Below, in pieces: positions 10,288 to 35,424 of a stretch of DNA of 35,424 nucleotides (positions are counted from its first letter, which is position 1; the number at the start of each line of letters is the position of its first letter). The stretch spans positions 1 to 35,424 of the forward strand of contig CAZIDW010000005.1 in NCBI GenBank assembly GCA_964538225.1. Direction: 5' to 3'. This DNA is from an uncultured Candidatus Peribacteria bacterium. Its GTDB lineage: Bacteria; Patescibacteriota; Gracilibacteria; UM-FILTER-43-11. A program made the position numbers and the translations under genes. Under the pieces are notes generated by a model. The model was not told where the DNA came from and searched no databases. It saw only the letters and a program-made list of their open reading frames with translations.

Positions 10288-10290
10288 TTA

Positions 10291-10330
10291 CCCATTGAGG
10301 GCTCAATTGAGGACCCATTGATTGCAATTC
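10291..10330. repeat. CCATTG/CAATTG-word repeat, left flank of the four-helix-bundle gene
   Basis: The sequence is cccattgagggctcaattgaggacccattgattgcaattc. It is related to 10763-10797 and, in reverse complement, to 12322-12390. Confidence 0.7.
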
Positions 10331-10392
10331 GGTTGATAATTAATACATATGTAATGTAATTAACCCTCTTTTTTGTTATTAAAGATTTTATT

Positions 10393-10749
10393 GTGCATTA
10401 TAGTGAATTAAAGATTTATCAGATTGCTAAAAAACTTGAGGAAGAGCTTGAGAAAGAATTAAATAATATTTTATTTTATTGGCAAATAGAAGATGTTGAT
10501 CAGGTTAGGCGATCTTCATCTTCTTCAACGACCAATATTGTTGAAGGGCATGGGAGACGTTTCTATGTTAAGGATTATATAAAATTTTTGAATTATTCTC
10601 TTACGTCGAGCGATGAAACTCAAAAACATATTCATAAACTTTATGTAAGCAAACACTTGTGTAAACATAAGTATGAATATTTTTTCAAAGGCTATAAAGA
10701 TTTATCGGTTCGGATATTAAACTATATAAACTGGTTGCGAAATAACTGA
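10393..10749 (+). CDS. four-helix-bundle protein (23S rRNA intervening-sequence protein / Avd family)
   Basis: The 118-aa protein has a GTG start. The family-typical pattern is L.IYQ.A..L....RRS..S...NIVEG.GR....D...FL..S..S..E....L. The gene is markedly AT-rich compared with its neighbours. Confidence 0.85.
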   Translation: MHYSELKIYQIAKKLEEELEKELNNILFYWQIEDVDQVRRSSSSSTTNIVEGHGRRFYVKDYIKFLNYSLTSSDETQKHIHKLYVSKHLCKHKYEYFFKGYKDLSVRILNYINWLRNN

Positions 10750-10762
10750 TATACTTAGTCGC

Positions 10763-10797
10763 GATCCATTGGGTCTTCCATGGGCCCTCAATTGGTT
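10763..10797. repeat. CCATTG/CAATTG-word repeat, right flank of the four-helix-bundle gene
   Basis: The sequence is gatccattgggtcttccatgggccctcaattgg. It shares about 21 of 24 positions with ctattgggtcctccatgagtcctc inside tsaE (12369-12392). Confidence 0.7.
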
Positions 10798-20805: not shown

Positions 20806-20974
20806 CTTCGTCGTGAAAACCGCTTCGGTTTGGTCTCGCAGGCTCGAATGTTTGCACGGGCTTTCCCGCATAAGGTTGTTTTTATAAAGATTTGCAAGCA
20901 TTTCTATCCCTTTGTAATTATATTGATTAAAGAGAGATTTTTCAGTAACATTAAAAGCCCTAACAGTTTTTGCG

Positions 20975-23806: not shown

Positions 23807-23875
23807 CGGATAGGTAAATCTGCTGGAGCGTTTTTGTAAAGAGGTCCAGCTTTTGTGTTGCGCGTGGAGCCCATT
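23785..23875 (+). repeat. copy 2 of the ~90-110 nt repeat; includes the last 7 codons and the stop of the FecR-like gene
   Basis: The sequence runs ggaggagcggctagatgattaa ... tgctggagcgtttttgtaaagaggtccagcttttgtg ttgcgcgtggagcccatt. See copy 1 at 13265-13371. Confidence 0.8.
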
Positions 23876-23949: not shown

Positions 23950-23988
23950 GCCCCGTCCACCGTTGCATAAAGCTATGGTGGACGGGGC
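23950..23988 (-). terminator. perfect 12-bp GC-rich hairpin 10 nt after the stop of island gene G
   Basis: GCCCCGTCCACC (23950-23961) pairs with GGTGGACGGGGC (23977-23988) across a 15-nt loop. The minus-strand downstream sequence UCUUUCC is only weakly U-rich. Confidence 0.55.
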
Positions 23989-23998
23989 GGGGTACCCT

Positions 23999-24625
23999 CT
24001 ATTGTTGGAGCTTGTTTTGATCGATGGTCCCATTTTGGACTAGGATGGCCAAGAGGTAATCGAAGTCCTGTGCCAGCCTTTCGTCGGCTTCGCGGTTGGC
24101 CGCAAGCCGCTTGTGCAGCCAGTAAGCGATACCGGCCGTCGAACCTAAACAAATGAGGCTGACCAGAAGGATGATGACCACCGTCCAGATCAGGCTGGAC
24201 TGCTTTTCCTCGAACTCGGCGGCCGTCAGGACCACAGGCTCGTCCGGGTCGGGATGATGGTGGTCGACCCGCGCCTTCAGCTTGCCGAAGGCGCCCTCCT
24301 CGCTTATAAAGGCTTCCATCTCTTCCTTGGTAATGAAGTGGGTGCTCTCTTCCTTGGTGATGAAGTGGGTGTTGTTATTCGTGGGGGGGTCCTTTTTGGG
24401 TTCGGGTTTCTTGGGGGAAGCCCTATGCCTCCGCTTGGGGACAGGCTTGGCGGGAATCTTACCATGGTTGCAGATTTCGTCATGCTGAGCTTGGCTGATC
24501 AGACCACTGGACTGATCCATTTTTGCCTGCGTACACGGATCGACCGTTTGGGCGCCGGCGACAGCCAGCAGAAAGGTCAGAAAGGTGACAAGGAAAAAGA
24601 CAAAGATAATTCCGTACCGTTTCAT
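23999..24625 (-). CDS. island gene G: type-I membrane protein, unknown function
   Basis: The signal peptide is MKRYGIIFVFFLVTFLTFLLAVAGA. It has a basic Pro/Lys stretch, a tandem 9-aa repeat THFITKEES/THFITKEEM (27-nt repeat at 24321-24371) and the TM segment LIWTVVIILLVSLICLGSTAGIAYWL. A strong SD precedes it (GAAGGAG, 7 nt before the ATG). Confidence 0.7.
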   Translation of the reverse strand: MKRYGIIFVFFLVTFLTFLLAVAGAQTVDPCTQAKMDQSSGLISQAQHDEICNHGKIPAKPVPKRRHRASPKKPEPKKDPPTNNNTHFITKEESTHFITKEEMEAFISEEGAFGKLKARVDHHHPDPDEPVVLTAAEFEEKQSSLIWTVVIILLVSLICLGSTAGIAYWLHKRLAANREADERLAQDFDYLLAILVQNGTIDQNKLQQ

Positions 24626-24785
24626 GATTCAACTCCTTCTCCCCGAGGGGAATCCGAGATTACGTGTTCGTAAAGAGGGTACCTGACGAGCAGTACCCCT
24701 CATCTTTTTATTTGAAAGCAAGTTGTACAACACTCGCCATGTGACTCTTTACGAACGCCCAGTGGTTTAAAAGAACAGATTTGCC

Positions 24786-25646
24786 TTAAGCCGTTTTTTT
24801 AATGGTTTCCGCGCCCCTTCCTTTCATACTTTTTTCGCTAGCCTGTTTCGCTGGCAGCTCGGCCATATTAGATGCTGTTTCAGTCGCCGCGACCTCCTGT
24901 TTCGCGGTTTTAACGCAATTCAGTGTACGGTCGATGCCGCTGCGGACATTTTTTACCGATTTTTGGATGCCGCGGGGGTAAGCCATTAGTCCGTTGCCAA
25001 TGTTTTCAGCCACAGGTTTAGCGGGTTTTGCCAACTCGATTGACGGCCTGCCCACCATCCTTACTGGAGTGGCGGCGATGCTGAATGGCAGCGAAATTGT
25101 GTTACCGAAAGCCCTCACTGGCTGGCCGCTTTTAACATTTTTTACGATTTTTCCAACTCTGGAACGGGTTTTTGATATACCATTTTTCAAGCCGAGCCAC
25201 ATATTTTTAGGGATTCTGATGACATTGCCTGGTGTTTTGAACACGCCTTTGATTACATCGCGGAAATTATGGACCAGATTTTTCTGAATGCAGATCAGGG
25301 GGGCTTTGACCAGTTCTTTCATGCCGCCGTAGATCGATCCTTTAAACACGCCGGCAGCCGCTTCGCGCGTGGCTTTTATCGGCATCTTGAATTTATCCAG
25401 TACTCTGGGTATGTATTTTGTCCCCAGGCTCAGGGGTTTTGTAATAGGCCATAAAACTATTCTCGCGGGAAAAGTGACCCATTTAAAACCTTTCCACAAT
25501 CCCCTGCCAAGCACTTTAAGGCCCGACCCGCTCGCTTTTGCGACTGCTTTGGCTTTTTCCGCGGCCATGCGGGGCATGCGTTTTTCTTTCACGAAACTGG
25601 TGTGAAAGTCATTGTTGTGCCAAAGGGTGGTTGTATTATGGAACAT
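24786..25646 (-). CDS. island gene F: highly basic Lys/Gly/Pro-rich protein, unknown function
   Basis: The 286-aa ORF contains recurring K-x-[VI]-K-x-G-like units (IKGVFKTPGNVIRIPKN, GKIVKNVKSGQPVR, IQKSVKNVRSGIDR). The start is uncertain and the ATG at 25577 (MPRMAAEKAKA) is an alternative. Confidence 0.6.
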   Translation of the reverse strand: MFHNTTTLWHNNDFHTSFVKEKRMPRMAAEKAKAVAKASGSGLKVLGRGLWKGFKWVTFPARIVLWPITKPLSLGTKYIPRVLDKFKMPIKATREAAAGVFKGSIYGGMKELVKAPLICIQKNLVHNFRDVIKGVFKTPGNVIRIPKNMWLGLKNGISKTRSRVGKIVKNVKSGQPVRAFGNTISLPFSIAATPVRMVGRPSIELAKPAKPVAENIGNGLMAYPRGIQKSVKNVRSGIDRTLNCVKTAKQEVAATETASNMAELPAKQASEKSMKGRGAETIKKTA

Positions 25647-25662
25647 GGTTTATGGCTGATTA

Positions 25663-26901
25663 TTAAGCCTGTTGGAAAAGATTATTTAAATCAAAGCGGT
25701 CTTTCAGCGCGCGGTACACTTCCTGGATTTTATCGCTGATTTCCTGTTCGTTTTCCAAACCGAAGGTTTCGCGCATTAGTTGTTCCGGATTGTCGACTTC
25801 CGGGGTATTTTTAAGAGCCAGTAACATAATGCCTAAGGAATCTTCCGGGAATACTGCGTCAATATCTAACCCCAGTTGCTGTAATTCCTCCGTATCGGGC
25901 TGTTCTTTAAAAATCCGGATTAATTCATCTGTGTACTGTTTCGCCCTTTGGGCTTCAGTATCGTTTGTTGTCTCAGCCACCTGATTTACGCCTGTTGCAG
26001 GTATAGGGTTTTGTGTCGCTGTTTCATCTAATGCATCACCGATTGCCGGTCGCGTTATTTTTACCTGTTGGGACATTTGGCTTAATATGCTTTCGATGTC
26101 ATTTTCATCGAATCGGCGCGGCTCTTTGCCGGGATTGTATTCAGGCAGTCTTAATTCTTCCGCCCATTCGATTTGCGCGTACACACTGCACGATTGTTTT
26201 TCCACGTAGATTCGATGACCGATTTTAGACATCAGATTTAAAATTTTATTGCCGTATTTTTCGATGTAATCCATCAGCTCATCAAACGGCTCCATCACAT
26301 CAGCCAGTTTTTTCAGATGCTGTCTCATGGTCGCTTCATCGTCATCGTTCCGGATTTTAAATATTTTGCTGAACAGTATATTAGTCGCCGTTACTTTCCT
26401 TGTGGTGAGACTGCGGATGTCGTTCCGCGTTACGTTTTTTCCGATCACAGCAATCATAATCGCTCTCAGCAGATTTTTTAGATTTTCCTCATCCAGCCCC
26501 AAATATTTCAGTAGGTTCCGGTTCTCATTGGGCTCCCGGACATGGTTTTTTAACAGTTCGATCAATGTCCGGACCGTGGCTACAGCCAAAGGCTGTTCCT
26601 TACAGATCTCTTTAAAGCGTTTGAAATTATCCGATTCAGGCTGTGTCGCAGACAAGGTCTGCGGGGCCCTTTCCGCTGTCGTTTGTGCCGGAACCGGCTC
26701 ATTGCCCTTAATATCTGCGTCAGGCCGGCTGTTTTCAGGGGTCTGTTGAGGCTCCTTGGGCTTAAGCTGGCTTTGCAGCCTGTCCCGCAGGGTATTTTGC
26801 GTAGCGGCGCCCGATTCCCTTTGCTTGATGGTCTCCTGGACACGCTCAGCTAAAGGCTTTCGGATACGCTCATTGACTGATTTTTTTCTAAAGATGGCCA
26901 T
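25663..26901 (-). CDS. island gene E: soluble acidic protein, unknown function
   Basis: The 412-aa ORF has a disordered Gln/Pro/Thr-rich N-terminal ~95 aa followed by helical-looking regions. It has no TM segment and no motif I recognise. Confidence 0.7.
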   Translation of the reverse strand: MAIFRKKSVNERIRKPLAERVQETIKQRESGAATQNTLRDRLQSQLKPKEPQQTPENSRPDADIKGNEPVPAQTTAERAPQTLSATQPESDNFKRFKEICKEQPLAVATVRTLIELLKNHVREPNENRNLLKYLGLDEENLKNLLRAIMIAVIGKNVTRNDIRSLTTRKVTATNILFSKIFKIRNDDDEATMRQHLKKLADVMEPFDELMDYIEKYGNKILNLMSKIGHRIYVEKQSCSVYAQIEWAEELRLPEYNPGKEPRRFDENDIESILSQMSQQVKITRPAIGDALDETATQNPIPATGVNQVAETTNDTEAQRAKQYTDELIRIFKEQPDTEELQQLGLDIDAVFPEDSLGIMLLALKNTPEVDNPEQLMRETFGLENEQEISDKIQEVYRALKDRFDLNNLFQQA

Positions 26902-26950
26902 TGTTTTAAAATTAAAAAGTAGAGATTAAAAGATAAAAATTTTAGGGGAT

Positions 26951-26982
26951 GGCGCGCCTCGTCGTGGTCGACGAGGCGCGCC
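26951..26982 (-). terminator. perfect 14-bp GC hairpin exactly 14 nt after the stop of island gene D
   Basis: GGCGCGCCTCGTCG-tggt-CGACGAGGCGCGCC. On the minus strand it is followed by AUCCCCUAAAAUUUUUAUCUUUU. Confidence 0.6.
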
Positions 26983-26996
26983 CGGTTGTCCGTTCA

Positions 26997-27656
26997 CTAG
27001 CCGTATTCGTCCAGGTCCAGCGCGTCGGTCAGACTGTCTGGCGCAGGGGTTGCTGGTAGCGTTGCGGGCCGCCTATAGCCGCAGCCTGCGGTGCAGGTCT
27101 TCGGCCCCAGGTAACCTCCGCAGTTCGGACAGGTCGAGGCGGGATCTGAGGGAGCCGTCGCGGGGGGCGGCGCTGTCGGCGCACCGGGCTGGGCTGGGGG
27201 AGTGGGAGCGGAACCTGCTTCCGGCGGCTTTTTGGGCCAGTACCGGAGGGTCAGGAGTGCTTTCCACCCTTTCTTTTCCGCCAGGCTGGTGAGCTCTGGC
27301 GGCTGGAAGCGGATTACCCCGATTAACATCAAGGGGATGAGCCAGCCCAGAGATTCGTCGGCGCAATGGAAAAGCGCCAAGCTGAGCCCGTAGGCGACCA
27401 CGAACCAGAAGGGTATACCCTTTAGGGAGCGCGCCTTTTTTCCGGGCAGGCTGATGTAGTGATACACTAGGAGCGCGAGAAGCAGGAACGCCCAACTACC
27501 GGGCACCAGGTACTCTGACCAATGGTTGAGAAAGTACTCCTTTTTTGGCCAGAAGGTGGGATCCACCTGGTCGGCAATCATTTCGGCTTCATCGGTGCAG
27601 CCGGTGGAAAGGATGACAGCGACGAGCGCTGCCATCAGTTTCAGGAAACGCTTCAT
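26997..27656 (-). CDS. island gene D: lipoprotein-signal polytopic membrane protein with C-terminal zinc ribbon and acidic LDEYG tail
   Basis: The signal/lipobox is AVILSTGC and there are 3-4 hydrophobic segments. A Pro/Ala-rich linker leads to CPNCGGYLGPKTCTAGCGY (CxxC...CxxxC, about 27075-27131). The C-terminus is SLTDALDLDEYG. The SD is AAGGAGG, 5 nt before the ATG. Confidence 0.75.
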   Translation of the reverse strand: MKRFLKLMAALVAVILSTGCTDEAEMIADQVDPTFWPKKEYFLNHWSEYLVPGSWAFLLLALLVYHYISLPGKKARSLKGIPFWFVVAYGLSLALFHCADESLGWLIPLMLIGVIRFQPPELTSLAEKKGWKALLTLRYWPKKPPEAGSAPTPPAQPGAPTAPPPATAPSDPASTCPNCGGYLGPKTCTAGCGYRRPATLPATPAPDSLTDALDLDEYG

Positions 27657-27801
27657 AACTGCCTCCTTTTAAGGCTGGTCGTGAACGGATAACAGAGAAA
27701 GTTCTGCCTTTTTCATCCTTCTCCGTCAAGGCTTCGAAGGAGAAAAAGACAAGAGGGTCTCTGTTATCGTTTCTCGGAATTTTAAAGAACAAGGGAATAA
27801 A

Positions 27802-27830
27802 ATTTTATAATATTTTTTATATTTTGTCAA
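27802..27830 (-). promoter_or_regulatory. sigma70-type promoter of island gene D (TTGACA-17-TAAAAT)
   Basis: The minus strand reads ttgaca aaatataaaaaatatta taaaat. It predicts a ~135-nt leader. Confidence 0.65.
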
Positions 27831-27856
27831 TCTTTTCTTAAAGAAAGCTGGTGAAC

Positions 27857-27885
27857 GGCGGCCCGGGAGAGGTTCCCGGGCCGCC
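27857..27885 (-). terminator. perfect 12-bp GC hairpin exactly 14 nt after the stop of island gene C
   Basis: GGCGGCCCGGGA-gaggt-TCCCGGGCCGCC. On the minus strand it is followed by GUUCACCAGCUUUCUUU and then the gene D promoter. Confidence 0.55.
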
Positions 27886-27899
27886 TGGTTGCTGTGCGC

Positions 27900-28766
27900 T
27901 CAGGAGTATTCATCTAACTCAGGGAGATCGAGGGCTTCCTCCAGAGATAGGGAGGTGGGCGAATCGGCCTGCCTGGATGATGTTTCGCAGTTCCCGCAGA
28001 GGACGTAGCCAGGCGGGTTCAGGTACCCGCAGGCGGGGCAGCTGACCCAATTCCGCTGGTCCTGCTGGGTGGGCTGGCTGGTGTCGGCGGCGGTAGGGGT
28101 TATTGCAGGCTGTTTGCCTTCCGCCGCCTTTTTCTTGCCGAAACGAATGCGGCGCCAGATTCCCAGGATGGAATTCTTGGGCGCGTTTTTGACCCACCCC
28201 TTAGCCTTGTCCCCGCCGACCTTTTCGGCGATGAACAAAATCATCATGATACAGCCGACGGTGCCGGCGGGCACAAAAATACCCCACAGCCAGAGCGGCT
28301 TGCTGGTGAGGGTTTTGCCCCCGCAGATACCTGCTAGGGCGACGCAGCCCAAAGCGCCGACCGTTATTTCTCCGACAGACAGAGGATCCTTTTGGCCGGG
28401 CAGTTTTTTGTCCATGACCCCCCGCCACCATTTCCCCGCTTTTGCAATTGAGCCGAGGATAGGAATGGGCATAGGGAAATAGGACAGGATTACAGGGATG
28501 AGCCAAAATGGCTGGAATGGCGGGATTACCAAGTACGTGACCCAGGGGCCGACATATTGGCGAGTGACCTTGACGATGATTAGGATCCAGAAGACTCCGA
28601 CCGCAAAGGCCCACATCCAGGACTCCGCGGGGGTTATGGCGTTGGTGACGGTGGATGAAAACCAATTCCACGCCTTCATCATGATTCCAGTTAAACTGCC
28701 TGCCCAAGCGACCTTGGGCAGTAACAACACAATGAGCATCGATACTCCCAAAGTAAACTTGCGCAT
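27900..28766 (-). CDS. island gene C: signal-peptide polytopic membrane protein with C-terminal zinc ribbon and acidic LDEYS tail (paralogous architecture to D)
   Basis: The signal peptide is MRKFTLGVSMLIVLLLPKVAWA and there are about 5-6 hydrophobic segments. A basic stretch RRIRFGKKK leads to a low-complexity linker and CPACGYLNPPGYVLCGNC (about 27987-28040). The C-terminus is SLSLEEALDLPELDEYS. The SD is AGGAG, 7 nt before the ATG. Confidence 0.75.
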   Translation of the reverse strand: MRKFTLGVSMLIVLLLPKVAWAGSLTGIMMKAWNWFSSTVTNAITPAESWMWAFAVGVFWILIIVKVTRQYVGPWVTYLVIPPFQPFWLIPVILSYFPMPIPILGSIAKAGKWWRGVMDKKLPGQKDPLSVGEITVGALGCVALAGICGGKTLTSKPLWLWGIFVPAGTVGCIMMILFIAEKVGGDKAKGWVKNAPKNSILGIWRRIRFGKKKAAEGKQPAITPTAADTSQPTQQDQRNWVSCPACGYLNPPGYVLCGNCETSSRQADSPTSLSLEEALDLPELDEYS

Positions 28767-28985
28767 AGTCAGACTCCTTTCGTAACCTCCTCGCGGGAGG
28801 CGTTTTTTGGTTTAACGGTCGTATCTGATTACCGGATAATCAAATAAAACCGTTAAACCGGTTTGATTCTGAACGTACACAGCAAGGAAGAGATCTGCTG
28901 TCAATCACCTCCGTAGAGGGAGAAATGGACAGCAAATCCTTCCTCGCTACGAGTTGTTAAAGAACAAGGTTGAGTAAGAGTGTAT

Positions 28986-29014
28986 ATTGTACAATAAATT
29001 AAATTTTATGTCAA
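28986..29014 (-). promoter_or_regulatory. sigma70-type promoter of island gene C (TTGACA-17-TACAAT)
   Basis: The minus strand reads ttgaca taaaatttaatttattg tacaat. It predicts a ~210-nt leader. Confidence 0.7.
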
Positions 29015-29052: not shown

Positions 29053-29077
29053 AAAAAAAAGAGCCGATAAACGACTC
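29053..29077 (-). terminator. rho-independent terminator of the 1569-aa gene
   Basis: The minus strand reads GAGUCG-uuuau-CGGCUC (one G.U pair) followed by U8 (A-run 29053-29060 on the plus strand). Confidence 0.6.
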
Positions 29078-29198
29078 CCCGAAAGGAAATAAGTAGTATA
29101 TTTAAATAATATACTTCTTGATTTATTTGTCAAGGGTCTAAGTCCTAGAATAAACAATCCTCTTAATTCAGAAATGGCTCAATTAAGACAAAATCCAC

Positions 29199-32100
29199 TT
29201 AGGGCCTATTGGCTTTTTGCCATTCATTATCCCAGCCGTCAGGACGCACATTGTAGTTATCTGTGTTTTGCCGCCCCCGGATGTGTCCAAGATATAAGTC
29301 TCCCTCTAATTTATTTTTTTCAAATAATTTTAGAGATTTATCATATGTCTCTGCGTTGGTTCTGTTTTTGTAGAACTGTGACATGGCTGTTCCGGGACTA
29401 CGGGCGCTTTCAAAATATTCATCCAGCCATTGTTTCTGTTCTTCGCTTAGTGATGTGTAACGTCGTATCCAGGCAATCGATCCGCTGTCGATGAACGGAA
29501 GGACATCCAATACATCGTGCGCAAAACCACCGGCCTTTCCAATCACATAAGAAGATGCCCGCACCCATTGCGAAAAGGCCAACAGCGCGTACCCGCCGAA
29601 TTTTTTAGTACCATAACTGTTTAAGCCGAAAGCCTCTTTCACATTTTCGTATAAGCCTTTTTTTGGGTCGATAATAAACGGCAGTCGGTCTTTGATTTCT
29701 GCGGCATTGTAATAATCCGGGAAGCGCCCCTTTTCCTTTAGGTAATATTCATGGCTGTCCGGCATGGGCATGCGGTAAAACGCGTAGATTTTAGACGGAG
29801 CTTTTTCGCCCGGCCCCCCTGTCTTTACCACGACATGGATGGTGTCCATGTATTTTTTCAAATCGGCTTTGGTTAGGTTCGGATGCTTGCTCACAAATTG
29901 TTCCATTGCCTGCTCGCGCATGGCTTTCTCCATTAAATTGTGGGCTTCGCCAACGGAATGGGTGTCTTTTACCCCTGCTTTTTCTTTGTCAACTGAAGTG
30001 AGAAGGTAGCCGATGCGGTAATCCGGGCTCCGTTCATTCTGCGTTTCCGTAAAATAAGCATTGCCGTTCGCGATGGCTTCCGGATTGCCGTTTGCCGCTC
30101 CGAAGGCGCTGGCGAACGGCCGCGTATAGTATCCCAAAAAACTAAATGTCTCACTCCCTCTTAATTCATCATCATCCTCCAGTTTCTGGCGATCAAGCTG
30201 GCTGTTTTGATCCAACAGTTCTCTGCCGACCACATCCCGCAACTCCAAATCGCGATGGATGGTCACCAGCTGGTCGCTCCTGAGCAGTTCTTTGACCTGG
30301 CGCAGTTTGGTGGTCGTCCATGGTATGGCGAATTTTGAGACCCCGTACAGCACTTCCAGCGGCAGGGTCACGCCTTCCACAGTCAATTGCCAGACATCAT
30401 CCACAAATTCAAGAATGACGGGTTTTTTGGCCTCGTACCAGATTTCAGCCCGGCGCCCCATAATCTTAACATTAGTAGTCGTTGAATCCACCAGCTCGCT
30501 CAATACTCTTTTGACCCATGGCACATAATGTGTGCCCAGGTTGTCGTAAAAATCTTTGCCGGCTTCAGTTACAGGTGAATAAATGTCGTAGCGGAATTTG
30601 GCGATTAGTTTATTGCTCGTTTCCTTGCCCCATTCCTTTGACCTTTCCAATAAGCTTTCTTTTTGCACGCGTTCCGCCTCGTAGCTGTCCATTTCCGCCT
30701 TCAGCACCACTTCCCAGGTCAAATCATCGGGATTATTGCGGAACTTTTTGATGATTATCTGTTGGATTTCCGTAAATTGGGCTTTTTCCAGGTCATAGTC
30801 CTTATCTGTAATGGCTTTTACCCACCGTTCGTTTAAGGCTTCCTTGCCCCAGTAGGCGTCTTTTTCCACCTTATCCCCCACATAGCCGAAGAAGTTTTCA
30901 ATGGTGCGTTTTACCACTTTAGCAGCCCGCATCTCCGGATCGTATTCTTTAAATTTAATGCCGCGCACAATATTGTATGCCTGGATCCGCCGGGGCAGTT
31001 TTACGTCTTCATGACCGGGCCGGGGCCGGCCGTCCGGCGTGGTGGCCTCGTACCATTCCATTAATTCAGCAAACGGCACATCGTTGAGCTCCTGCAGGGC
31101 GCGGGCGTGTTCGTCGTCGGAAATCTCGTTTTTTTCCATGTCCGCTGCCCCCTGTTCCAGCAGTACGGATTCATACGTGCCCTCCATGGATTCCGCGATG
31201 CCGGTGAGTTTGAACCGGTCCAGAAGCCCTTCGCCGGTCACGTGTTTAATGGTGAGTTCCGCGGCGCCGGCCATAAAAAGGACGCGCAGGAATTTGCCGG
31301 ATTTCCCTTCGCCTTTGTAGGCTTTTTTGGCCAGTTTCCAGGCCCCGATGAGCAGGGCCACGCCCGCGGCGCGGTTGGCAATGCTCTGCCCCGGGCCGAT
31401 GACCATGTCGATCACGCCTTTGGCGTAATCAGTGATCTTGTCCCCAAAAGTCATGCCGTCCAGTTTGGCGGCCAGTTCCGCTTTTCCCTCCGCGCGGGCC
31501 GCGTCGATTTTTTCGCGGTGTCGGATTTCGATTTCAATCATTTTCACAATATTCCGCGCAGTGATCTGGGCATTCCGTATCTTGGGGTCCGGGTCCAGTT
31601 CCGCGCCTTTAATGGTTTCCAGCACTTTCAGAAAATCTTCTTTGCCCTGGGCCACACCCGGTTTGGTCTCCGGCAGGATGTAATTGAACATCTTTACCAG
31701 TTTCTGCACGCCTTCTTCGCTGGCCAGCATGTGGTCCCATGCTTCTATTTTCATGCCCGGGTCCCCCTCTTTGTTTTCCGGGCTGATGTAGTCTTCGTAC
31801 CGGCCCTGCACGTATTCCATGCGCATCCCCAGCCGTTCCAGGTAATCCCAGCGGCTTTCCGGGTCGTAATCCAGCGTGCTGTAGGTTACATCGATATGCG
31901 CGAGGTCCTCTTCAAAGGATTTGATGAATTCCCTGTTGTTGACCCCGTAGATCTCATCGTAAAGGCTTTTCGTTTTTTTAAAAGTTTCGATGTAATCTGC
32001 GAATTGTTTGCGTGTCGGGTTTTTAACGCGCGCCAATTTGTGCGCCTCTTTGTATAAGCCTTGCCATTGTTGCAGGGTTTTTTTGTCGCGTTTAATCACC

Positions 32101-33908
32101 TTGCCGATGTTGTCCCGCGAGAGCGGGTTTCCATCCGGCCCGTAAACGTATTGGCTTAATTCCGCGATCATCGGGTCGATTTCTTTGTCCTCAGATTTTT
32201 CTTTAATCAATTCGCTGATTTCCTCCATGCGCCCGATGTTGTCCTCCAGCAGGCGCGCTTTTACCATGGCCAGGTTCGCGTAGCGGGCGAACAGCAGAAA
32301 GGTACGCTGGGGGGCCTGCAAAAACCGGCCTTCCACGGTGCGGTTGAAGTATTCGGACTGCGCCAAAGTCTCAAACATCCATTTATATTCATCGGTGATG
32401 TCACCTTCATATTCTTCTTTTCCTTCTTTATTGATCCGGTAGCGGCTGACCCCTTCGCGATAAATCGTGGCGACCAGCATGCGCCGGATGGCCGGGTGCA
32501 GGTCTTTGCCGAAATACCCGCCGTGTTCCCCGTACAGGTGGTCTACCGTTTCCATGGCTTTTTTGAACTTGCGCATGGCTAGTTCCATCAGGATCTGGCG
32601 GTTATTGGGCTTGCTCAGACTTTCCCGTGTGAAGGCTTGTCCTGCCTTTTCTTTGTCTTCTACGCGTTTGTGGTAATCCTGGGCCGCGTCAGCCAGTTTT
32701 TTGCACTTTTCCAGATCTTTTATCTTTTCCTGATAAATAGCGATGTTCAGATGGGTCTCCTTTTCTTTTTTAAGATTTTTTATTTTGATTTCAAAATCCA
32801 GCTGTATGTCTCCGATAGCTCCCCCTATTTCCCCGAAAGCCCGGCTTAAAGGCGGTGTCATCCGCACCTTGGCCGCCCGGTTTTCTATTCCGGTTGCCCC
32901 GCTGGTTTGGATGATCTCGTCGATACGCGCGGGAATGGCATCGCTTTTTGCCCGGGCCAGTGTTTCCTGTTCCGTGAGCTTTTCGTGAAAATGGCGTATA
33001 TCCTGTTCAGGGTCTTTGCCCCCCCAGTAGGTCAACCATTCATGATGAAGGAAGGGAAAATTCCTTTTGTTCTCCGCCGGATCGTTTTTAAAATTTTCAC
33101 CCAATACAAAGCTATTGGGGGCAAAATCATTGGTCTCGTACGCCAGGATCGACAGAAACAGCTGTTTGCTTTCACGCAGTTTTTGTTCGGATTCAATTCC
33201 CTCTGGCCCTTTCCAGAAGCTCTCAAAAAAACGGTCGCTCAAAAGCGGGCTTTCCACCGCCCGTTCAAAGGCTGCGACCGCGTTGTTGAATTCACGGCTT
33301 TCCTTAAATTCCTTACGCTTTCTCATGATTTCCCCCACCTTTTCGCCTTTATAGGTCAGGCGCTGGTGGCGCCGGTAAATCACGTCTGTTTTGGCCTTTT
33401 CCAGCTTTTTGAGAAGGGCTTCATGCTCCTCGATGGCTTTTACCAGTGATGCTAATTCCTTGGGCTGATTCCGTCTTTTTTCAAAGTATTTTTTAACCTC
33501 TTTAAACGGATGCCACTTTTTGCCGGTCTCGTCATCCTCGTAAAAGAACTCGGATTCCTGAATGGCTTTGGTGCGGTCTTTGGTAGCCCCCAAATCATCA
33601 AAATCCAGTTTAACGGCCTGCTCGTGGGGCCGTCTTTTTTTGGCGACGTCATCCCATTCCTCAAAATCTTCATCCGCGTATTTCTGGTTGTATGCTTTCT
33701 GGCTCGCCAGGAGTGTTTCCCGGCTTTCTTCCACCTTTTCTTTTTGCTTATCAACTTCCTCCTCCAGTTTTTTAATGGTCTCTTCTTTCAGGTCGGTCTC
33801 AATGCCGGCTTCTGTTTCCAGGCGGAATTCCCTAAAGACCGGCTGGTTTACCCATAAGCCGAAATCACTGTTTTCAGAACGATGGTGGCTCCAGGCGGTC
33901 AAAGGCAT
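29199..33908 (-). CDS. island gene B: 1569-aa protein of unknown function with central hydrophobic hairpin
   Basis: It is a single uninterrupted ORF, mostly charged and helical-looking. It has no signal peptide, HExxH or Walker A motif. The only hydrophobic stretch is central (GVIDMVIGPGQSIANRAAGVALLIGAWKLAKKAYKGEGKSGKFLRVLFMAGAAELTI, about nt 31250-31440). Confidence 0.85.
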   Translation of the reverse strand: MPLTAWSHHRSENSDFGLWVNQPVFREFRLETEAGIETDLKEETIKKLEEEVDKQKEKVEESRETLLASQKAYNQKYADEDFEEWDDVAKKRRPHEQAVKLDFDDLGATKDRTKAIQESEFFYEDDETGKKWHPFKEVKKYFEKRRNQPKELASLVKAIEEHEALLKKLEKAKTDVIYRRHQRLTYKGEKVGEIMRKRKEFKESREFNNAVAAFERAVESPLLSDRFFESFWKGPEGIESEQKLRESKQLFLSILAYETNDFAPNSFVLGENFKNDPAENKRNFPFLHHEWLTYWGGKDPEQDIRHFHEKLTEQETLARAKSDAIPARIDEIIQTSGATGIENRAAKVRMTPPLSRAFGEIGGAIGDIQLDFEIKIKNLKKEKETHLNIAIYQEKIKDLEKCKKLADAAQDYHKRVEDKEKAGQAFTRESLSKPNNRQILMELAMRKFKKAMETVDHLYGEHGGYFGKDLHPAIRRMLVATIYREGVSRYRINKEGKEEYEGDITDEYKWMFETLAQSEYFNRTVEGRFLQAPQRTFLLFARYANLAMVKARLLEDNIGRMEEISELIKEKSEDKEIDPMIAELSQYVYGPDGNPLSRDNIGKVIKRDKKTLQQWQGLYKEAHKLARVKNPTRKQFADYIETFKKTKSLYDEIYGVNNREFIKSFEEDLAHIDVTYSTLDYDPESRWDYLERLGMRMEYVQGRYEDYISPENKEGDPGMKIEAWDHMLASEEGVQKLVKMFNYILPETKPGVAQGKEDFLKVLETIKGAELDPDPKIRNAQITARNIVKMIEIEIRHREKIDAARAEGKAELAAKLDGMTFGDKITDYAKGVIDMVIGPGQSIANRAAGVALLIGAWKLAKKAYKGEGKSGKFLRVLFMAGAAELTIKHVTGEGLLDRFKLTGIAESMEGTYESVLLEQGAADMEKNEISDDEHARALQELNDVPFAELMEWYEATTPDGRPRPGHEDVKLPRRIQAYNIVRGIKFKEYDPEMRAAKVVKRTIENFFGYVGDKVEKDAYWGKEALNERWVKAITDKDYDLEKAQFTEIQQIIIKKFRNNPDDLTWEVVLKAEMDSYEAERVQKESLLERSKEWGKETSNKLIAKFRYDIYSPVTEAGKDFYDNLGTHYVPWVKRVLSELVDSTTTNVKIMGRRAEIWYEAKKPVILEFVDDVWQLTVEGVTLPLEVLYGVSKFAIPWTTTKLRQVKELLRSDQLVTIHRDLELRDVVGRELLDQNSQLDRQKLEDDDELRGSETFSFLGYYTRPFASAFGAANGNPEAIANGNAYFTETQNERSPDYRIGYLLTSVDKEKAGVKDTHSVGEAHNLMEKAMREQAMEQFVSKHPNLTKADLKKYMDTIHVVVKTGGPGEKAPSKIYAFYRMPMPDSHEYYLKEKGRFPDYYNAAEIKDRLPFIIDPKKGLYENVKEAFGLNSYGTKKFGGYALLAFSQWVRASSYVIGKAGGFAHDVLDVLPFIDSGSIAWIRRYTSLSEEQKQWLDEYFESARSPGTAMSQFYKNRTNAETYDKSLKLFEKNKLEGDLYLGHIRGRQNTDNYNVRPDGWDNEWQKANRP

Positions 33909-34016: not shown

Positions 34017-35060
34017 TTATTCATCTTTCTTTTTGGCGGACTGGCGCCTTTTCTGCCGTTCAGCAATGGCGTTCTGGTAGCCTTCCGGCACCGCCCAGAT
34101 TACAAATCCTACCCCTTCTCGGCGTCCCGTATTTTCCATTAGATATCCTTCTTTCGATACGCTTAATATGGTTCGGAAAGAACGGTAAGTGGGCACTTTG
34201 ATGATAAAAACGCCCGGATTGTACTTATTGGTTACTACATGGAATTGCATAGTTTTTTCTGGCTCCTGCCCTTCCATAATCATCTGTAAGTTTTTATTCA
34301 TTTCCTCGCGCGAGCGGGGGTGTTGTTCTAAAAGTCTCAGAAATTCTCCGTATCCGGTATTGACGTTACTGTCTTCCGCATCAGGATTGAGTTCGCCTCT
34401 TAGTTGAATTAGCTTGGCCAGTCGATGGGGCAGTTTAATACGGTAGGTGTCATAAATGCCCTGGTCGCGGTCTTTTTTTCCGCGGATCCGATTCCTCCGG
34501 TTGGCAAAGATTTTGCGGTTGACCTTGGGGATTGTCTTGTCAAATTTGTCCCAGTCTAGCCATCCAAGGGGGTTCAGTTCTACCCCGTTTACCTTCACGA
34601 TTTGACCGAACTGGATGCGTATCAAAAAATGCTCAGGAATGTGTACAGCATCATCCCGACGCGTGATATTAAAAACACCCGATGCTTCTTCGCGGTAATG
34701 CAGTTCTTCCGGATGTTGAATAGCCAATTCCAACACTTCGTCTACCTTTTCTTGTTTTTCACTCCTTTCGATATACAGTAAAAAAGAAGGATTGAGATAA
34801 AAACGATAAAGCGTTTCTTGGCAATTTTGAAGCAATTCCAATTCCTCCGGGCCGAATTCAATGGGCGTGCGGTACTGGTCCCGTTCGCGCTGGCATGAGA
34901 TATTCAGATAGCACGGGGGCACGTCCGCTTTTGCTTCCCCAAACGGGCTGACGATTTTTAAAATCGCCGCGGCCACGGCGCCGCGCAGGAGCGCGCGCCG
35001 GCTGACGACCGGATTTCGGGGTTTTTCGCCTTCAGATTGATCGGGTTTATTCACACTCAT
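34017..35060 (-). CDS. island gene A: Tat-signal secreted protein, unknown function
   Basis: It has a twin-arginine signal VVSRRALLRGAVAAAILKIVSPFGEAKA. I moved the start to the ATG at 35060 (MSVNKPDQ...) because the track ATG at 35099 lies between the -35 and -10 of the promoter below. Confidence 0.72.
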   Translation of the reverse strand: MSVNKPDQSEGEKPRNPVVSRRALLRGAVAAAILKIVSPFGEAKADVPPCYLNISCQRERDQYRTPIEFGPEELELLQNCQETLYRFYLNPSFLLYIERSEKQEKVDEVLELAIQHPEELHYREEASGVFNITRRDDAVHIPEHFLIRIQFGQIVKVNGVELNPLGWLDWDKFDKTIPKVNRKIFANRRNRIRGKKDRDQGIYDTYRIKLPHRLAKLIQLRGELNPDAEDSNVNTGYGEFLRLLEQHPRSREEMNKNLQMIMEGQEPEKTMQFHVVTNKYNPGVFIIKVPTYRSFRTILSVSKEGYLMENTGRREGVGFVIWAVPEGYQNAIAERQKRRQSAKKKDE

Positions 35061-35090
35061 AAAATGGTCATAGGTTATGGAGTGAATTTT

Positions 35091-35118
35091 ATTATACATT
35101 ATAAATATATTTTGTCAA
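35091..35118 (-). promoter_or_regulatory. consensus sigma70-type promoter of island gene A (TTGACA-16-TATAAT)
   Basis: The minus strand reads ttgaca aaatatatttataatg tataat. The -10 element is at 35096-35091. Confidence 0.7.
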
Positions 35119-35178
35119 TATTATTTCCAATTCTTAAATTGGGATCCCGCCGAATAACCATTGTAAATGACCCCCTCT

Positions 35179-35408
35179 GACTCGCTACGGCGAGTCTTCT
35201 CCCCCTCGCCTGAGGGACCCCCTCCCTCCCCGCAAAGCGGGGAGTACTCCCCCTCGCCTGAGGGGGAGACTGTTTGTTTTTGCCCTCGCCGGGCGGGCGA
35301 CCGCTCCGAAGTCACATCGGAGCGGTCAGAAAAACCCGCCGGGGGCCTATGAGCCGTGTAATCACCGGAGTCGCCTTGTATCACCGTCTGCCACGGCCAT
35401 AGCCCCCG
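35179..35408. other. string of five GC-rich hairpins with an 18-nt direct repeat, running toward the window edge
   Basis: The hairpins are GACTCGC-tacg-GCGAGTC (35179-35196), CTCCCCGC-aaa-GCGGGGAG (35225-35243) and CTCCCCCT-cgcctg-AGGGGGAG (35248-35269). They continue with GACCGCTCCGA-agtcaca-TCGGAGCGGTC (35299-35327) and a long imperfect stem GGGGGCCTATGAGCCGTG...CACGGCCATAGCCCCC (35341-35408). The direct repeat CTCCCCCTCGCCTGAGGG occurs at 35199-35216 and 35248-35265. Confidence 0.6.
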
Positions 35409-35424
35409 GACCCCCAGGGGTCGC

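What the first reader, a model, noticed from the sequence alone, without database searches (positions are those of the whole stretch)
23950..29014. Three self-contained GC-rich cassettes (G, D, C) with strong Shine-Dalgarno sites among SD-less neighbours
Genes G, D and C each carry a canonical SD (GAAGGAG, AAGGAGG and AGGAG) 5-7 nt before the ATG.

By eye I find no AGGAG or GGAGG within ~15 nt of the starts of gap, prs, cysS, GT2, tsaE, lspA, ftsW, GT4 or guaA, nor of island genes A, B, E and F.

The same three genes are visibly more GC-rich. My hand counts on single 120-nt samples gave about 67% in D and 57% in C, against 46-58% in two samples of B. Each ends in a perfect 12-14 bp GC hairpin. 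In C and D that hairpin sits exactly 14 nt after the stop codon.

The pattern fits acquired or duplicated autonomous cassettes from a donor that uses SD-dependent initiation. It also fits a gene class under special translational control.
Basis: seen in the sequence. Interest (0 to 1): 0.65.

Follow-up and report, generated by a model that had tools for sequence, protein, structure and literature searches.

The report
Leader-RNA gene cassettes with Shine-Dalgarno sites
In a Peregrinibacteria (candidate phyla radiation) genome whose genes almost all lack ribosome-binding (Shine-Dalgarno) sites, three small membrane-protein genes are separate units that share a conserved, previously undescribed folded RNA leader, a strong Shine-Dalgarno site, GC-rich codon usage and a strong 3' hairpin, and this looks like an old, inherited gene class with its own expression control rather than imported DNA.

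Summary
Of 26 genes in the window, only C, D and G have a Shine-Dalgarno (SD) site. They have the three highest GC3 values, and each ends in a perfect 12-14 bp GC hairpin.

The "foreign cassette" reading does not hold. The organism is a Peregrinibacteria, and the same units sit at the same chromosomal place in at least five further lineages. Their proteins diverge about as much as GMP synthase does. SD, GC-rich codon usage and hairpins are all kept there, even where the genome has drifted to 42-46% GC.

Pooled over the lineages, 23 of 25 cassette genes have an SD core, against 1 of 116 other genes.

The new result is a shared 5' leader: the motif UGYUCUUUAA followed by a long two-part hairpin. 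Compensatory base changes support it, and it is more conserved than the coding sequences. A covariance model built from C/D leaders finds the G leaders, and a model built from G leaders finds the C/D leaders. Rfam has no match.

Best reading: an ancient, partly duplicated class of single-gene units for envelope proteins that depends on the leader and the SD.

Main caveat: published Peregrinibacteria 16S tails are non-canonical, and this lineage's 16S could not be reached.

The parts
28986..29014 (-). Promoter of cassette C (TTGACA-17-TACAAT, 11 of 12 matches)
   Evidence: The same hexamers are kept in L010 and L003.
28767..28985 (-). C leader, about 220 nt. It holds the 5' motif CCTTGTTCTTTAAC (28956-28969), the long hairpin P1 (within 28874-28969), a second hairpin (28809-28859) and a CCUCC/GGAGG hairpin (28786-28800), and it ends in the SD AAAGGAG (28774-28780).
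   Evidence: Folding z-score -7.6. Alignment fold. Covariance-model hits of 78 bits with R1 and 37 bits with R2. The whole B-C intergenic region that contains it is 78-87% identical across lineages, against 62-74% for the CDS.
27900..28766 (-). Gene C: 288-aa polytopic membrane protein with a signal peptide, a C-terminal zinc ribbon and an acidic ALDLxELDEY tail
27857..27885 (-). Perfect 12-bp GC hairpin after C, with no U-tract
   Evidence: Compensatory changes in orthologues (GGCGGCC / GGTGGCC / GGCAGCC).
27802..27830 (-). Promoter of cassette D (TTGACA-17-TAAAAT)
27657..27801 (-). D leader, about 145 nt. It holds the 5' motif CCTTGTTCTTTAAA (27781-27794) and the two-part hairpin (model hit 27684-27794). 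A GCCUU/GAGGC hairpin covers the SD AAGGAGG (27662-27668).
   Evidence: z-score -4.5.
26997..27656 (-). Gene D: 219-aa lipoprotein-type membrane protein with a Pro-rich linker, a zinc ribbon and an ALDLDEY tail. It is a paralogue of C in its C-terminal module.
26951..26982 (-). Perfect 14-bp GC hairpin after D. The stem is identical in three lineages while the loops differ.
24626..24785 (-). G leader. The 5' motif TCTGTTCTTTTAAA (24767-24777) starts 8 nt after the stop codon of F. The outer stem is TTCGTAAAGAG/CTCTTTACGAA. A UCCCC/GGGGA hairpin sits next to the SD GAAGGAG (24633-24639).
   Evidence: R1 hit of 23 bits and R2 hit of 115 bits. There is no room for a promoter between F and the motif.
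23999..24625 (-). Gene G: 208-aa single-pass membrane protein with a signal peptide and a C-terminal transmembrane segment
23950..23988 (-). GC hairpin after G (12 perfect bp). The structure is kept in orthologues but the sequence is not.
24786..26901 (-). Genes E and F, lying between D and G. They have no SD, low GC3 and no leader, and serve as the internal contrast.

Best explanation
C, D and G belong to an ancient, vertically inherited class of single-gene expression units in Candidatus Peregrinibacteria, a phylum in which nearly all genes start translation without an SD.

Each unit consists of:
- a consensus sigma-70-type promoter (G instead is read through from E-F);
- a shared structured 5' leader, made of a 5'-proximal pyrimidine motif UG(U/C/A)UCUUU(N)A(A/C) followed by a long two-part hairpin, plus extra hairpins in C;
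- a canonical-looking SD (A)AAGGAG(G) placed 5-9 nt before the ATG and partly buried in local pairing;
- a coding sequence for a small envelope protein, written in a GC-rich codon dialect that favours C-ending codons and AAG;
- a very stable GC hairpin without a U-tract.

Proposed mechanism (inferred). These mRNAs are too structured and GC-rich to use the A-rich, unstructured, SD-independent loading route of the other genes. They therefore depend on SD pairing with the 16S tail. The common leader and 3' hairpin protect the mRNA and gate access to the SD, so the class is co-regulated after transcription. The shared 5' motif would be the common handle for a trans-acting factor, a processing nuclease or an anti-SD-like pairing.

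What is shown: the anatomy, its conservation, the covariation, the class-specific SD and codon usage, and vertical descent.

What is inferred: SD-16S pairing in this lineage, control of stability or translation, and the role of the motif.
For: SD restricted to the class. 3 of 3 against 0-1 of 23 genes in the window. Pooled over 11 loci, 23 of 25 against 1 of 116, Fisher p about 5e-23. This count is partly circular, because some units outside the island were chosen by these very features.

Vertical descent.
- The order guaA-sigma-antisigma-G-F-E-D-C-B is kept in L010, L003, L014, L017 and L137.
- C, D and G are 53-75% identical between lineages, similar to guaA at 60-73%.

The compositional contrast persists and grows in lower-GC relatives.
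- GC3 is 0.60-0.81 against 0.35-0.52. In the distant locus L006 it is 0.89 against 0.20-0.38.
- AAG-Lys is 0.63-0.92 against 0.03-0.37.

The intergenic regions holding the leaders are 73-91% identical, against 55-74% for the cassette coding sequences and 27-60% for other intergenic DNA.

Hairpin covariation.
- C/D leaders: 15 of 23 pairs show double changes. 95% of cells are paired, against 46-64% when the partners are slid. 0 of 500 shuffles reach the observed value.
- G leaders: 13 of 29 pairs show double changes, with 91% paired against 40-48%.

Reciprocal model detection.
- R1 (built from C/D) finds G leaders at 18-32 bits.
- R2 (built from G) finds every C and D leader at 25-48 bits.
- R1 run on 683 kb of unrelated viral DNA gave one hit, at E = 0.79.

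Other points.
- In the window the models find only C, D and G, apart from weaker opposite-strand echoes of the same three hairpins.
- The SD core is predicted to be mostly paired in all 18 leaders, with P(unpaired) 0.10-0.49.
- 3' hairpins have dG of -20 to -33 kcal/mol, against -2 to -15 after other window genes.
- SD scarcity is published for the phylum: 7% SD genes in Ca. Peribacter riflensis (PMC10783764).
Against:
- Five published Peregrinibacteria genomes have non-canonical tails (CACUUCCUUA, CAUUCCCUUA, UACCUCUUUU).
- The cassette SDs pair best with the canonical tail (median -8.8 kcal/mol). They pair less well with the published tails (-7.0, -6.2, -4.8).
- No expression data could be found, so transcript ends, abundance and regulation are untested.
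- Pairing between the 5' motif and the SD is predicted in only 7 of 18 leaders.
- In the window itself, GC at four-fold sites in C and D is not outside the housekeeping range.
- Only 5-8 lineages were available, and orthologues are not independent observations.
Confidence: 0.6

Rival explanations
1. Constitutive high-expression, long-lived mRNA modules. The strong promoter, 5' stem-loop, strong SD, C-ending codons and 3' hairpin would simply maximise the yield of abundant envelope proteins in the way the ompA or lpp mRNAs do, with no switch-like regulation. The shared leader would be a 5' stabiliser.
For: - The promoters match the consensus at 11 of 12 positions.
- The leader and 3' hairpins are very stable.
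- The codon bias is towards NNC and AAG in every lineage.
- No conserved internal-loop sequence suggests a ligand pocket.
Against: - The SD is predicted to be largely paired.
- A CCUCC/GGAGG hairpin and a GCCUU/GAGGC hairpin lie on or next to the SD and are conserved.
- The 5' motif is conserved in sequence, not just in structure.
- A GC3 shift from 0.25 to 0.89 (L006) is larger than translational selection usually produces.
- No expression data are available.
Confidence: 0.2
2. The AAGGAG element is not a working SD. Peregrinibacteria ribosomes have variant or unused anti-SD tails. The purine tract would be part of the leader's own structure or a protein-binding site, and initiation would be SD-independent as for all the other genes.
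For: - Published Peregrinibacteria 16S tails lack CCUCC.
- Ca. Peribacter riflensis is classed as SD-scarce.
- The purine tract is always involved in predicted pairing.
Against: - The GGAG core is kept at 5-9 nt from the ATG in 23 of 25 units with unrelated cargo and in lineages from 30% to 50% GC. That is the spacing expected for SD-anti-SD pairing.
- Two of the three published variant tails still pair at -6 to -9 kcal/mol through G-U wobble.
- bS21, which hides the anti-SD in Bacteroidia, is often absent in Peregrinibacteria (PMC9297842).
Confidence: 0.1
3. The cassettes are foreign DNA taken from a GC-rich, SD-using donor, either anciently and retained or repeatedly exchanged as moron-like units among Peregrinibacteria.
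For: - Composition and codon usage are atypical, and each unit carries its own promoter and hairpin.
- Whole units are gained or lost. H is absent from the window. G is duplicated in L003. Lineage-specific units sit at other sites in L136, L137 and L138.
- An aconitase-family gene with an SD and raised GC in L138 looks like a real import.
Against: - C, D and G are syntenic and diverge like housekeeping genes.
- Homologues were found only in Patescibacteria.
- The contrast has not ameliorated over genus-to-family-level divergence and is largest where the genome is most AT-rich.
- The promoters are AT-rich and native in style, and the leader models score 0.38-0.48 GC on all but the L006 leader.
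- No integrase, transposase or flanking repeats were found.
- No viral relatives came out of a leader-pattern scan of viral contigs.
Confidence: 0.08
4. Chance plus amino-acid composition. The SD-like strings and the GC excess would be by-products of Pro/Ala/Gly-rich proteins and random purine runs.
For: In the window, second-position GC is high in C and D (0.48-0.52), while their four-fold-site GC is ordinary.
Against: - Conservation of the SD, leader, hairpin and codon dialect across lineages.
- G has ordinary second-position GC (0.36) but the highest GC3.
- Covariation statistics.
Confidence: 0.02

Closest known systems
SD-scarce Peregrinibacteria with variant anti-SD tails (Amin et al. 2018; PLoS One 2024, PMC10783764)
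   Same: Same phylum. The published figure of about 7% SD genes for Ca. Peribacter riflensis fits 1 of 116 ordinary genes here.
   Different: To my knowledge those surveys do not say which genes keep an SD. They do not describe a shared leader RNA, a codon dialect or a cassette layout. The 16S tail of this particular clade is unknown.
Bacteroidia SD-blind ribosomes with an SD-led rpsU (PMC7797042, PMC9976891, PMC13000453)
   Same: A genome-wide lack of SD sites with a tiny SD-bearing minority that is under special translational control.
   Different: There the SD gene is rpsU (bS21), and control works by releasing an anti-SD that bS21, bS18 and bS6 keep hidden. Here the cargo is envelope proteins, and bS21 is often missing in the phylum (PMC9297842). 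A structured leader family accompanies the SD.
Phage 'morons' (autonomous promoter-gene-terminator modules of deviant composition; from my own knowledge of Hendrix, Juhala and co-workers, 2000)
   Same: Single-gene units with their own promoter and hairpin, deviant GC, and whole-unit gain or loss between neighbouring genes (H, and the lineage-specific units).
   Different: These units are chromosomal. C, D and G are ancient and syntenic, not recent insertions. All units share one leader RNA.
5' UTR mRNA stabilisers (E. coli ompA leader; Bacillus cryIIIA STAB-SD; from my own knowledge)
   Same: A long structured leader on a monocistronic envelope-protein mRNA. C also has extra SD-like GGAGG strings inside its leader.
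   Different: No sequence or model similarity. The stabilising function is untested here.
fourU / ROSE RNA thermometers and other SD-sequestering leaders (from my own knowledge)
   Same: A U-rich or pyrimidine tract (UUCUUU) that can pair with AAAGGA of the SD through A-U and G-U pairs. Local hairpins also cover the SD.
   Different: The motif lies 114-350 nt from the SD. Pairing between them is predicted in only 7 of 18 leaders. There is no Rfam match.
Integron gene cassettes
   Same: Arrays of single-gene units, each ending in an inverted repeat.
   Different: These units have their own promoters. Their hairpins are perfect stems rather than attC sites. No integrase is nearby.

Membership tests
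Canonical SD-led genes | A purine-rich motif complementary to the canonical 16S tail CCUCC | tested here: met
   Pairing of -8.2 to -11.6 kcal/mol for C, D and G. 23 of 25 units carry a GGAG/GAGG core.
Canonical SD-led genes | The motif lies 5-9 nt upstream of the start codon and is conserved in orthologues | tested here: met
   The upstream sequences show spacings of 5-9 nt in all lineages.
Canonical SD-led genes | The organism's own 16S 3' tail is complementary to the motif | not testable with these tools
Published Peregrinibacteria tails are variant. Computed pairing to them is -4.8 to -7.0 kcal/mol (median).
Horizontally acquired island or moron-like insert | Composition and codon usage deviate from the host genome | tested here: met
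Horizontally acquired island or moron-like insert | Patchy presence among close relatives, or absence at the orthologous site | tested here: not met
   C/D-type units are at the same site in six lineages (window, L010, L003, L014, L017, L137) and G-type units in five of those; L014 has an unrelated SD-less gene at the G position. The feature is met only for the extra unit H and the lineage-specific units.
Horizontally acquired island or moron-like insert | Nearest homologues lie in another phylum, or divergence is out of step with the genome | tested here: not met
   Homologues were found only in Patescibacteria. Identity is similar to guaA and the neighbouring genes.
Horizontally acquired island or moron-like insert | Mobility genes or flanking direct repeats | tested here: not met
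   No integrase or transposase domains in A-G. No repeats bracket the units.
Known Rfam cis-regulatory RNA or riboswitch | A match to a curated covariance model at its gathering score | tested here: not met
   The best hits are generic hairpin (miRNA) models at 31 bits against a gathering score of 81.
Structured cis-acting leader RNA (generic) | Conserved secondary structure supported by compensatory changes and by conservation above the flanking sequence | tested here: met
   Reciprocal model hits.
SD-sequestering switch (fourU/ROSE-like or anti-SD leader) | A conserved pyrimidine tract pairs with the SD, and the pairing is supported across homologues | tested here: inconclusive
   Local hairpins over or next to the SD are conserved, and the SD core is mostly paired. 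Long-range pairing of the 5' motif with the SD appears in 7 of 18 leaders only. One compensatory pair supports it in C.
Bacteroidia-type SD-blind system | Genome-wide SD scarcity | tested here: met
   1 of 116 non-cassette genes has an SD core. Literature.
Bacteroidia-type SD-blind system | The anti-SD is hidden by bS21/bS18/bS6, and the SD-led gene is rpsU | tested here: not met
   The cargo is membrane proteins, not rpsU. Sequestration of the anti-SD cannot be tested here. bS21 is often absent in the phylum.
Integron cassette | A promoterless ORF plus an attC site next to an intI integrase | tested here: not met
   The units have their own consensus promoters and perfect stems, and there is no integrase.
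Intrinsic (Rho-independent) terminator | A GC-rich stem followed directly by a U-tract | tested here: not met
   Only 2-5 U in the 10 nt after the C, D and G hairpins. By contrast, the hairpin 120 nt after B has a U8 tract.

The most novel reading that the evidence does not exclude
Peregrinibacteria would run two translation-initiation regimes side by side. Most genes use SD-independent loading. A leader-marked regulon of envelope and secreted proteins uses the 16S tail.

In this reading the conserved 5' motif (UGYUCUUUAA) mimics the clade's own pyrimidine-rich 16S tail; compare the published tail ...CCUCUUUU. That would let the cell switch its whole surface-protein set on or off after transcription. 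The switch could work through competition for the SD, through ribosome heterogeneity, or through a small anti-SD-like RNA such as the candidate encoded just upstream of C. The separate codon dialect would tune these mRNAs to that regime.
Probability: 0.15. Interest if true: 0.85.

Novelty: new variant of a known kind. Interest (0 to 1): 0.62.

Why it matters
SD-poor bacteria are known, but what the few remaining SD sites are for has been worked out only in Bacteroidia, where the SD gene is rpsU.

Here the SD minority of an uncultured, ultra-small symbiont phylum coincides with three other features: one conserved leader RNA family, a codon dialect decoupled from the genome's drift in GC content, and envelope or secreted cargo.

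This yields a concrete, searchable marker (two covariance models) for a probable post-transcriptional regulon of surface proteins in CPR bacteria. It makes testable the question of whether the variant 16S tails of these organisms are still used. It also warns that the combination of atypical GC, an SD and an own promoter and terminator need not mean horizontal transfer.

Tried and rejected
- Exact-protein look-ups of C and D found nothing.
- Genome and metagenome scans with the F protein gave only three close and two distant lineages. More lineages came from guaA homologues.
- Viral scans. Protein alignments of D and G were too divergent to be used. A gapped DNA pattern for the G stem was too unspecific: it gave 117 or more chance loci, and none of the 80 listed loci that were screened scored with the leader model. 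This served as a negative control.
- No RNA-seq or metatranscriptome runs were found for any lineage, so transcript ends and abundance are untested.
- ECF-type promoter spacing around the 5' motif was inconsistent between units, so I dropped that idea (by eye).
- The 5' motif as a DNA operator near the transcription start is unlikely. In G the motif follows F's stop codon directly, with no promoter in between.
- The degenerate motif pattern alone is not specific: it occurs about once per 3.5 kb per strand. Only the motif plus the hairpin is specific.
- Thermodynamic support for pairing between the 5' motif and the SD is mixed.
- The H, L137 and L138 leaders score only about 12 bits with R1, so their homology to the C/D/G leader is not established.
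- The "exactly 14 nt" spacing is not conserved.

Full report
**What is in the window.**
The 35.4-kb window has 49.6% GC and carries housekeeping genes: gap, prs, cysS, tsaE, lspA, ftsW, murG and guaA. It also carries an ECF-type sigma factor with a DUF5667/FecR-like partner. On the minus strand lies a block of genes without Pfam families: A (34017-35099), B (29199-33908, 1569 aa), C, D, E, F and G.

GMP synthase is most similar (66-75% identity) to proteins labelled Candidatus Peregrinibacteria. The closest relatives of C are labelled Patescibacteria. The organism is therefore a Peregrinibacteria of the candidate phyla radiation. DNA runs that hold the window come from a microbial-mat metagenome.

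**Checking the observation.**
- Only G, D and C have an SD: GAAGGAG, AAGGAGG and AAAGGAG, placed 5-7 nt before the ATG.
- Predicted pairing to ACCUCCUUA is -8.2 to -11.6 kcal/mol for these three and 0 to -3.8 for the other genes, with two exceptions. orf712 has an uncertain TTG start. The murG value came from the first in-frame TTG start (16055), which lies inside ftsW; at the later ATG (16100) it has no SD core. In several related loci the called murG start follows the GGSGGH codons and gives the same spurious SD.
- About 4% of random 22-mers reach -8 kcal/mol.
- C, D and G have the three highest GC3 values, 0.71-0.72 against 0.665 or less.
- At four-fold sites C and D (0.73-0.74) lie inside the housekeeping range. 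Within this genome the contrast comes from second-position GC and from two-fold codons, notably AAG-Lys at 0.63 against 0.20-0.28.
- The only perfect inverted repeats of 12 bp or more with short loops in the window follow D (14 bp) and C (12 bp). G's hairpin has a 12-bp perfect core.
- The 14-nt offset after the stop codon is real for C and D but is not conserved in orthologues.
- The hairpins lack U-tracts. The hairpin 120 nt downstream of B, by contrast, has a U8 tract.

**The units are old and inherited.**
The same order, ftsW-murG-GT4-orf99-guaA-sigma-antisigma-G-F-E-D-C-B-A, recurs in two lineages from other samples (L010/L001 and L003/L004). Recognisable versions recur in L014, L017 and L137. 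Two distant loci, L006 and L009, keep E-F-G.

Between the three closest lineages C, D and G are 53-75% identical. A neighbour (orf681) is 67-72% identical, and the C-terminal part of guaA is 60-73%. The cassette genes are therefore neither unusually similar (no recent exchange) nor out of step with the genome.

The contrast in the relatives is much larger than in the window.
- In L010, GC3 of C, D and G is 0.64-0.81, against 0.43-0.47 for guaA, GT4 and murG.
- In L003 it is 0.60-0.69, against 0.35-0.44.
- In L006 it is 0.89, against 0.20-0.38.

The codon dialect (AAG, NNC) is the same everywhere.

Pooled over 11 loci, 23 of 25 cassette genes have a GGAG/GAGG core, against 1 of 116 other genes. 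I note that some units outside the island were picked by these very features, so the pooled count is partly circular. The orthologues of C, D and G were picked by homology and position.

**The new element: a shared leader RNA.**
C and D each have a consensus promoter (TTGACA-17-TAxAAT). It is followed by a 145-220-nt leader that begins with the exact 13-mer CCTTGTTCTTTAA (family D8). G's leader begins with TCTGTTCTTTTAAA 8 nt after F's stop codon, with no promoter in between.

The leaders fold far better than shuffled sequence: z = -7.6 for C, -4.5 for D and -2.6 for G.

The intergenic regions that hold the leaders are 73-91% identical between lineages. The cassette coding sequences are 55-74% identical, and other intergenic DNA is 27-60%.

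Ten C and D leaders from five lineages align to one two-part hairpin.
- 15 of 23 pairs show changes on both sides.
- 95% of cells are paired, against 46-64% when the partners are slid.
- None of 500 shuffles reaches the observed values.

Six G leaders give 13 of 29 such pairs and 91% pairing, against 40-48% for slid partners. The outer stem TTCGTAAAGAG/CTCTTTACGAA is kept even in a 30% GC lineage, with a G-C to A-U swap.

The two covariance models detect each other's leaders.
- Model R1, built from C/D leaders only, finds the G leaders at 18-32 bits.
- Model R2, built from G leaders only, finds every C and D leader at 25-48 bits. It also finds the L006 leader and further candidates in L009 and L136.
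- R1 run on 683 kb of unrelated viral DNA gave one hit, at E = 0.79.
- In the window the models hit only C, D and G, apart from weaker opposite-strand echoes of the same three hairpins.

Rfam 15 has no family for these leaders.

**The SD in its context.**
The SD is embedded in conserved local structure.
- C: CCUCC-loop-GGAGG lies just 5' of the SD.
- D: GCCUU/GAGGC lies across the SD.
- G: UCCCC/GGGGA lies beside the SD.

The SD core is predicted to be mostly paired in all 18 leaders examined.

The 5' motif (UUCUUU) can pair with AAAGGA of the SD. RNAalifold predicts this pairing for C, with one compensatory pair. Partition-function predictions show it in only 7 of 18 leaders, so I treat it as a hypothesis.

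**Cargo and modularity.**
- C and D are membrane proteins. They resemble each other only in a C-terminal zinc ribbon plus tail.
- G is a single-pass membrane protein.
- A fourth unit, H, encodes a membrane-anchored 312-aa protein. It has a promoter, the motif TGCTCTTTTAAAA, a long leader, an SD and a GC hairpin. H sits between guaA and sigma in L010 and L003 and is entirely absent from the window at 20806-20974.
- G is tandemly duplicated in L003.
- Other lineages carry units of the same layout at other sites, with other secreted cargo (L137 2789-3850, L136 20771-21787, L138 2668-2868). Their leaders score only about 12 bits with R1.

The units therefore behave as modules that can be duplicated, gained or lost whole. 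The three in this window are nonetheless ancient residents.

**Literature context.**
- Ca. Peribacter riflensis is listed as SD-scarce, with 7% SD genes (PMC10783764).
- That paper's S4 table, drawing on Amin et al. 2018, gives non-canonical 16S tails for five Peregrinibacteria: GAACACTTCCTTA (three genomes), GAACATTCCCTTA and GATTACCTCTTTT.
- bS21 is often missing in the phylum (PMC9297842).
- The cassette SDs pair best with the canonical tail, at a median of -8.8 kcal/mol. They still pair with two of the variants at -7.0 and -6.2 kcal/mol through G-U wobble.
- I could not reach the 16S of this clade. This is the main open point.

The constant 5-9-nt spacing of the GGAG core to the ATG, across unrelated cargo and across 30-50% GC genomes, argues that it does work as an SD.

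**Interpretation.**
The best-supported reading is a conserved, leader-marked, SD-dependent class of monocistronic units for envelope proteins. The SD, the GC-rich codon dialect and the terminal hairpins are kept by selection.

I infer three things, none of them shown:
- These structured, GC-rich mRNAs cannot use the A-rich, SD-independent route of the other genes and so need the SD.
- The leader and the 3' hairpin stabilise the mRNA and gate the SD.
- The shared 5' motif is the common handle for a factor, a processing nuclease or anti-SD-like pairing.

A purely constitutive high-yield, stable-mRNA role is the main rival and overlaps with this reading. Foreign origin is poorly supported for C, D and G. 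Chance is excluded by the orthologue comparison.

**Verdict.**
- The "acquired from a donor" interpretation is not supported. The "special translational class" interpretation is supported and is extended by a previously undescribed leader RNA family.
- Novelty: a new variant of known kinds (an SD minority in SD-poor bacteria, and structured cis-acting leaders).
- Interest: 0.62.

Noticed in passing
window 29058-29133 (- strand): Between B and the C promoter lies a second consensus promoter (TTGACA-16-TATTAT). It is followed by about 45 nt and a hairpin with a U8 tract. The promoter hexamers, a co-varying stem and the U-tract are kept in L010 and L003. It is either a tiny sRNA or B's terminator with an overlapping promoter. 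Its unpaired 5' part is pyrimidine-rich (UUUCCUUUC, UUUUCCUUC, UUUCCCUUC). That resembles the published Peregrinibacteria 16S tails and is complementary to AAGGA.
   Followed up: partly
window 26997-27040 and 27900-27945; orthologues in L010, L003, L014, L017: The last residues of C and D are alike within each lineage but differ between lineages: ALDLxEY, ALD(M/L)LWR(K/R), VDKLFPV and ..R(D/R)LL(R). In the window, L010 and L003 the tails use different codons, which points to protein-level co-evolution, for example with a shared binding partner. In L017 the DNA is identical over 8 codons, which may be gene conversion.
   Followed up: partly
window 20806-20974, against L010 13800-15000 and L003 12241-13445: A complete fourth cassette, H (promoter, 5' motif, ~230-nt leader, SD, 312-aa membrane-anchored protein with a DxSGS motif, GC hairpin), lies between guaA and the sigma gene in two lineages. 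It is cleanly absent from the window and from L014, L017, L136 and L137.
   Followed up: partly
L003 7762-9180; window 23829-23844: G is tandemly duplicated in L003, and the second copy keeps only the 3' part of the leader. In the window, a 16-mer downstream of G (CCTCTTTACAAAAACG on the - strand) resembles the 3' arm of the G leader stem and may be a relic of such a copy.
   Followed up: partly
window 35130-35424 (- strand): Upstream of A there is a GC-rich stretch packed with short GC hairpins (for example CTCCCCCTCAGGCGAGGGGGAG and GACCGCTCCGATGTGACTTCGGAGCGGTC). It has no convincing ORF and no Rfam match, and it is cut off by the end of the window.
   Followed up: no
window 35060-35118: The first ATG of A (35099) lies inside A's own 12-of-12 consensus promoter. 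The orthologue in L004 starts at the residue matching Met-14, so the real start is probably 35060. There is no SD either way.
   Followed up: partly
window 24319-24372: There is a 27-nt tandem repeat inside G, encoding (N/S)THFITKEE twice.
   Followed up: no
window 10288-10779: A very AT-rich spacer (GC about 0.29-0.34) lies between the solute-binding-protein gene and the O-antigen-ligase-like gene. It holds only a doubtful GTG ORF.
   Followed up: no
L138 3186-5123: In a 37.5% GC relative, an aconitase-family gene (Pfam E = 5e-103) has an AAAAGGAG SD, raised GC and a TGATCTTTGAAA motif upstream. It is inserted between lspA and ftsW. It may be a genuine imported gene, or it may show that the SD class is not limited to envelope proteins.
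   Followed up: no
murG starts: L010 19693, L014 6923, L018 3825: The called murG starts in these related loci fall just after the GGSGGH codons, which produces a spurious strong SD. In the window the spurious SD instead precedes the first in-frame TTG (16055), inside ftsW. The real start is upstream in the loci and at the later ATG (16100) in the window, and has no SD core there.
   Followed up: yes
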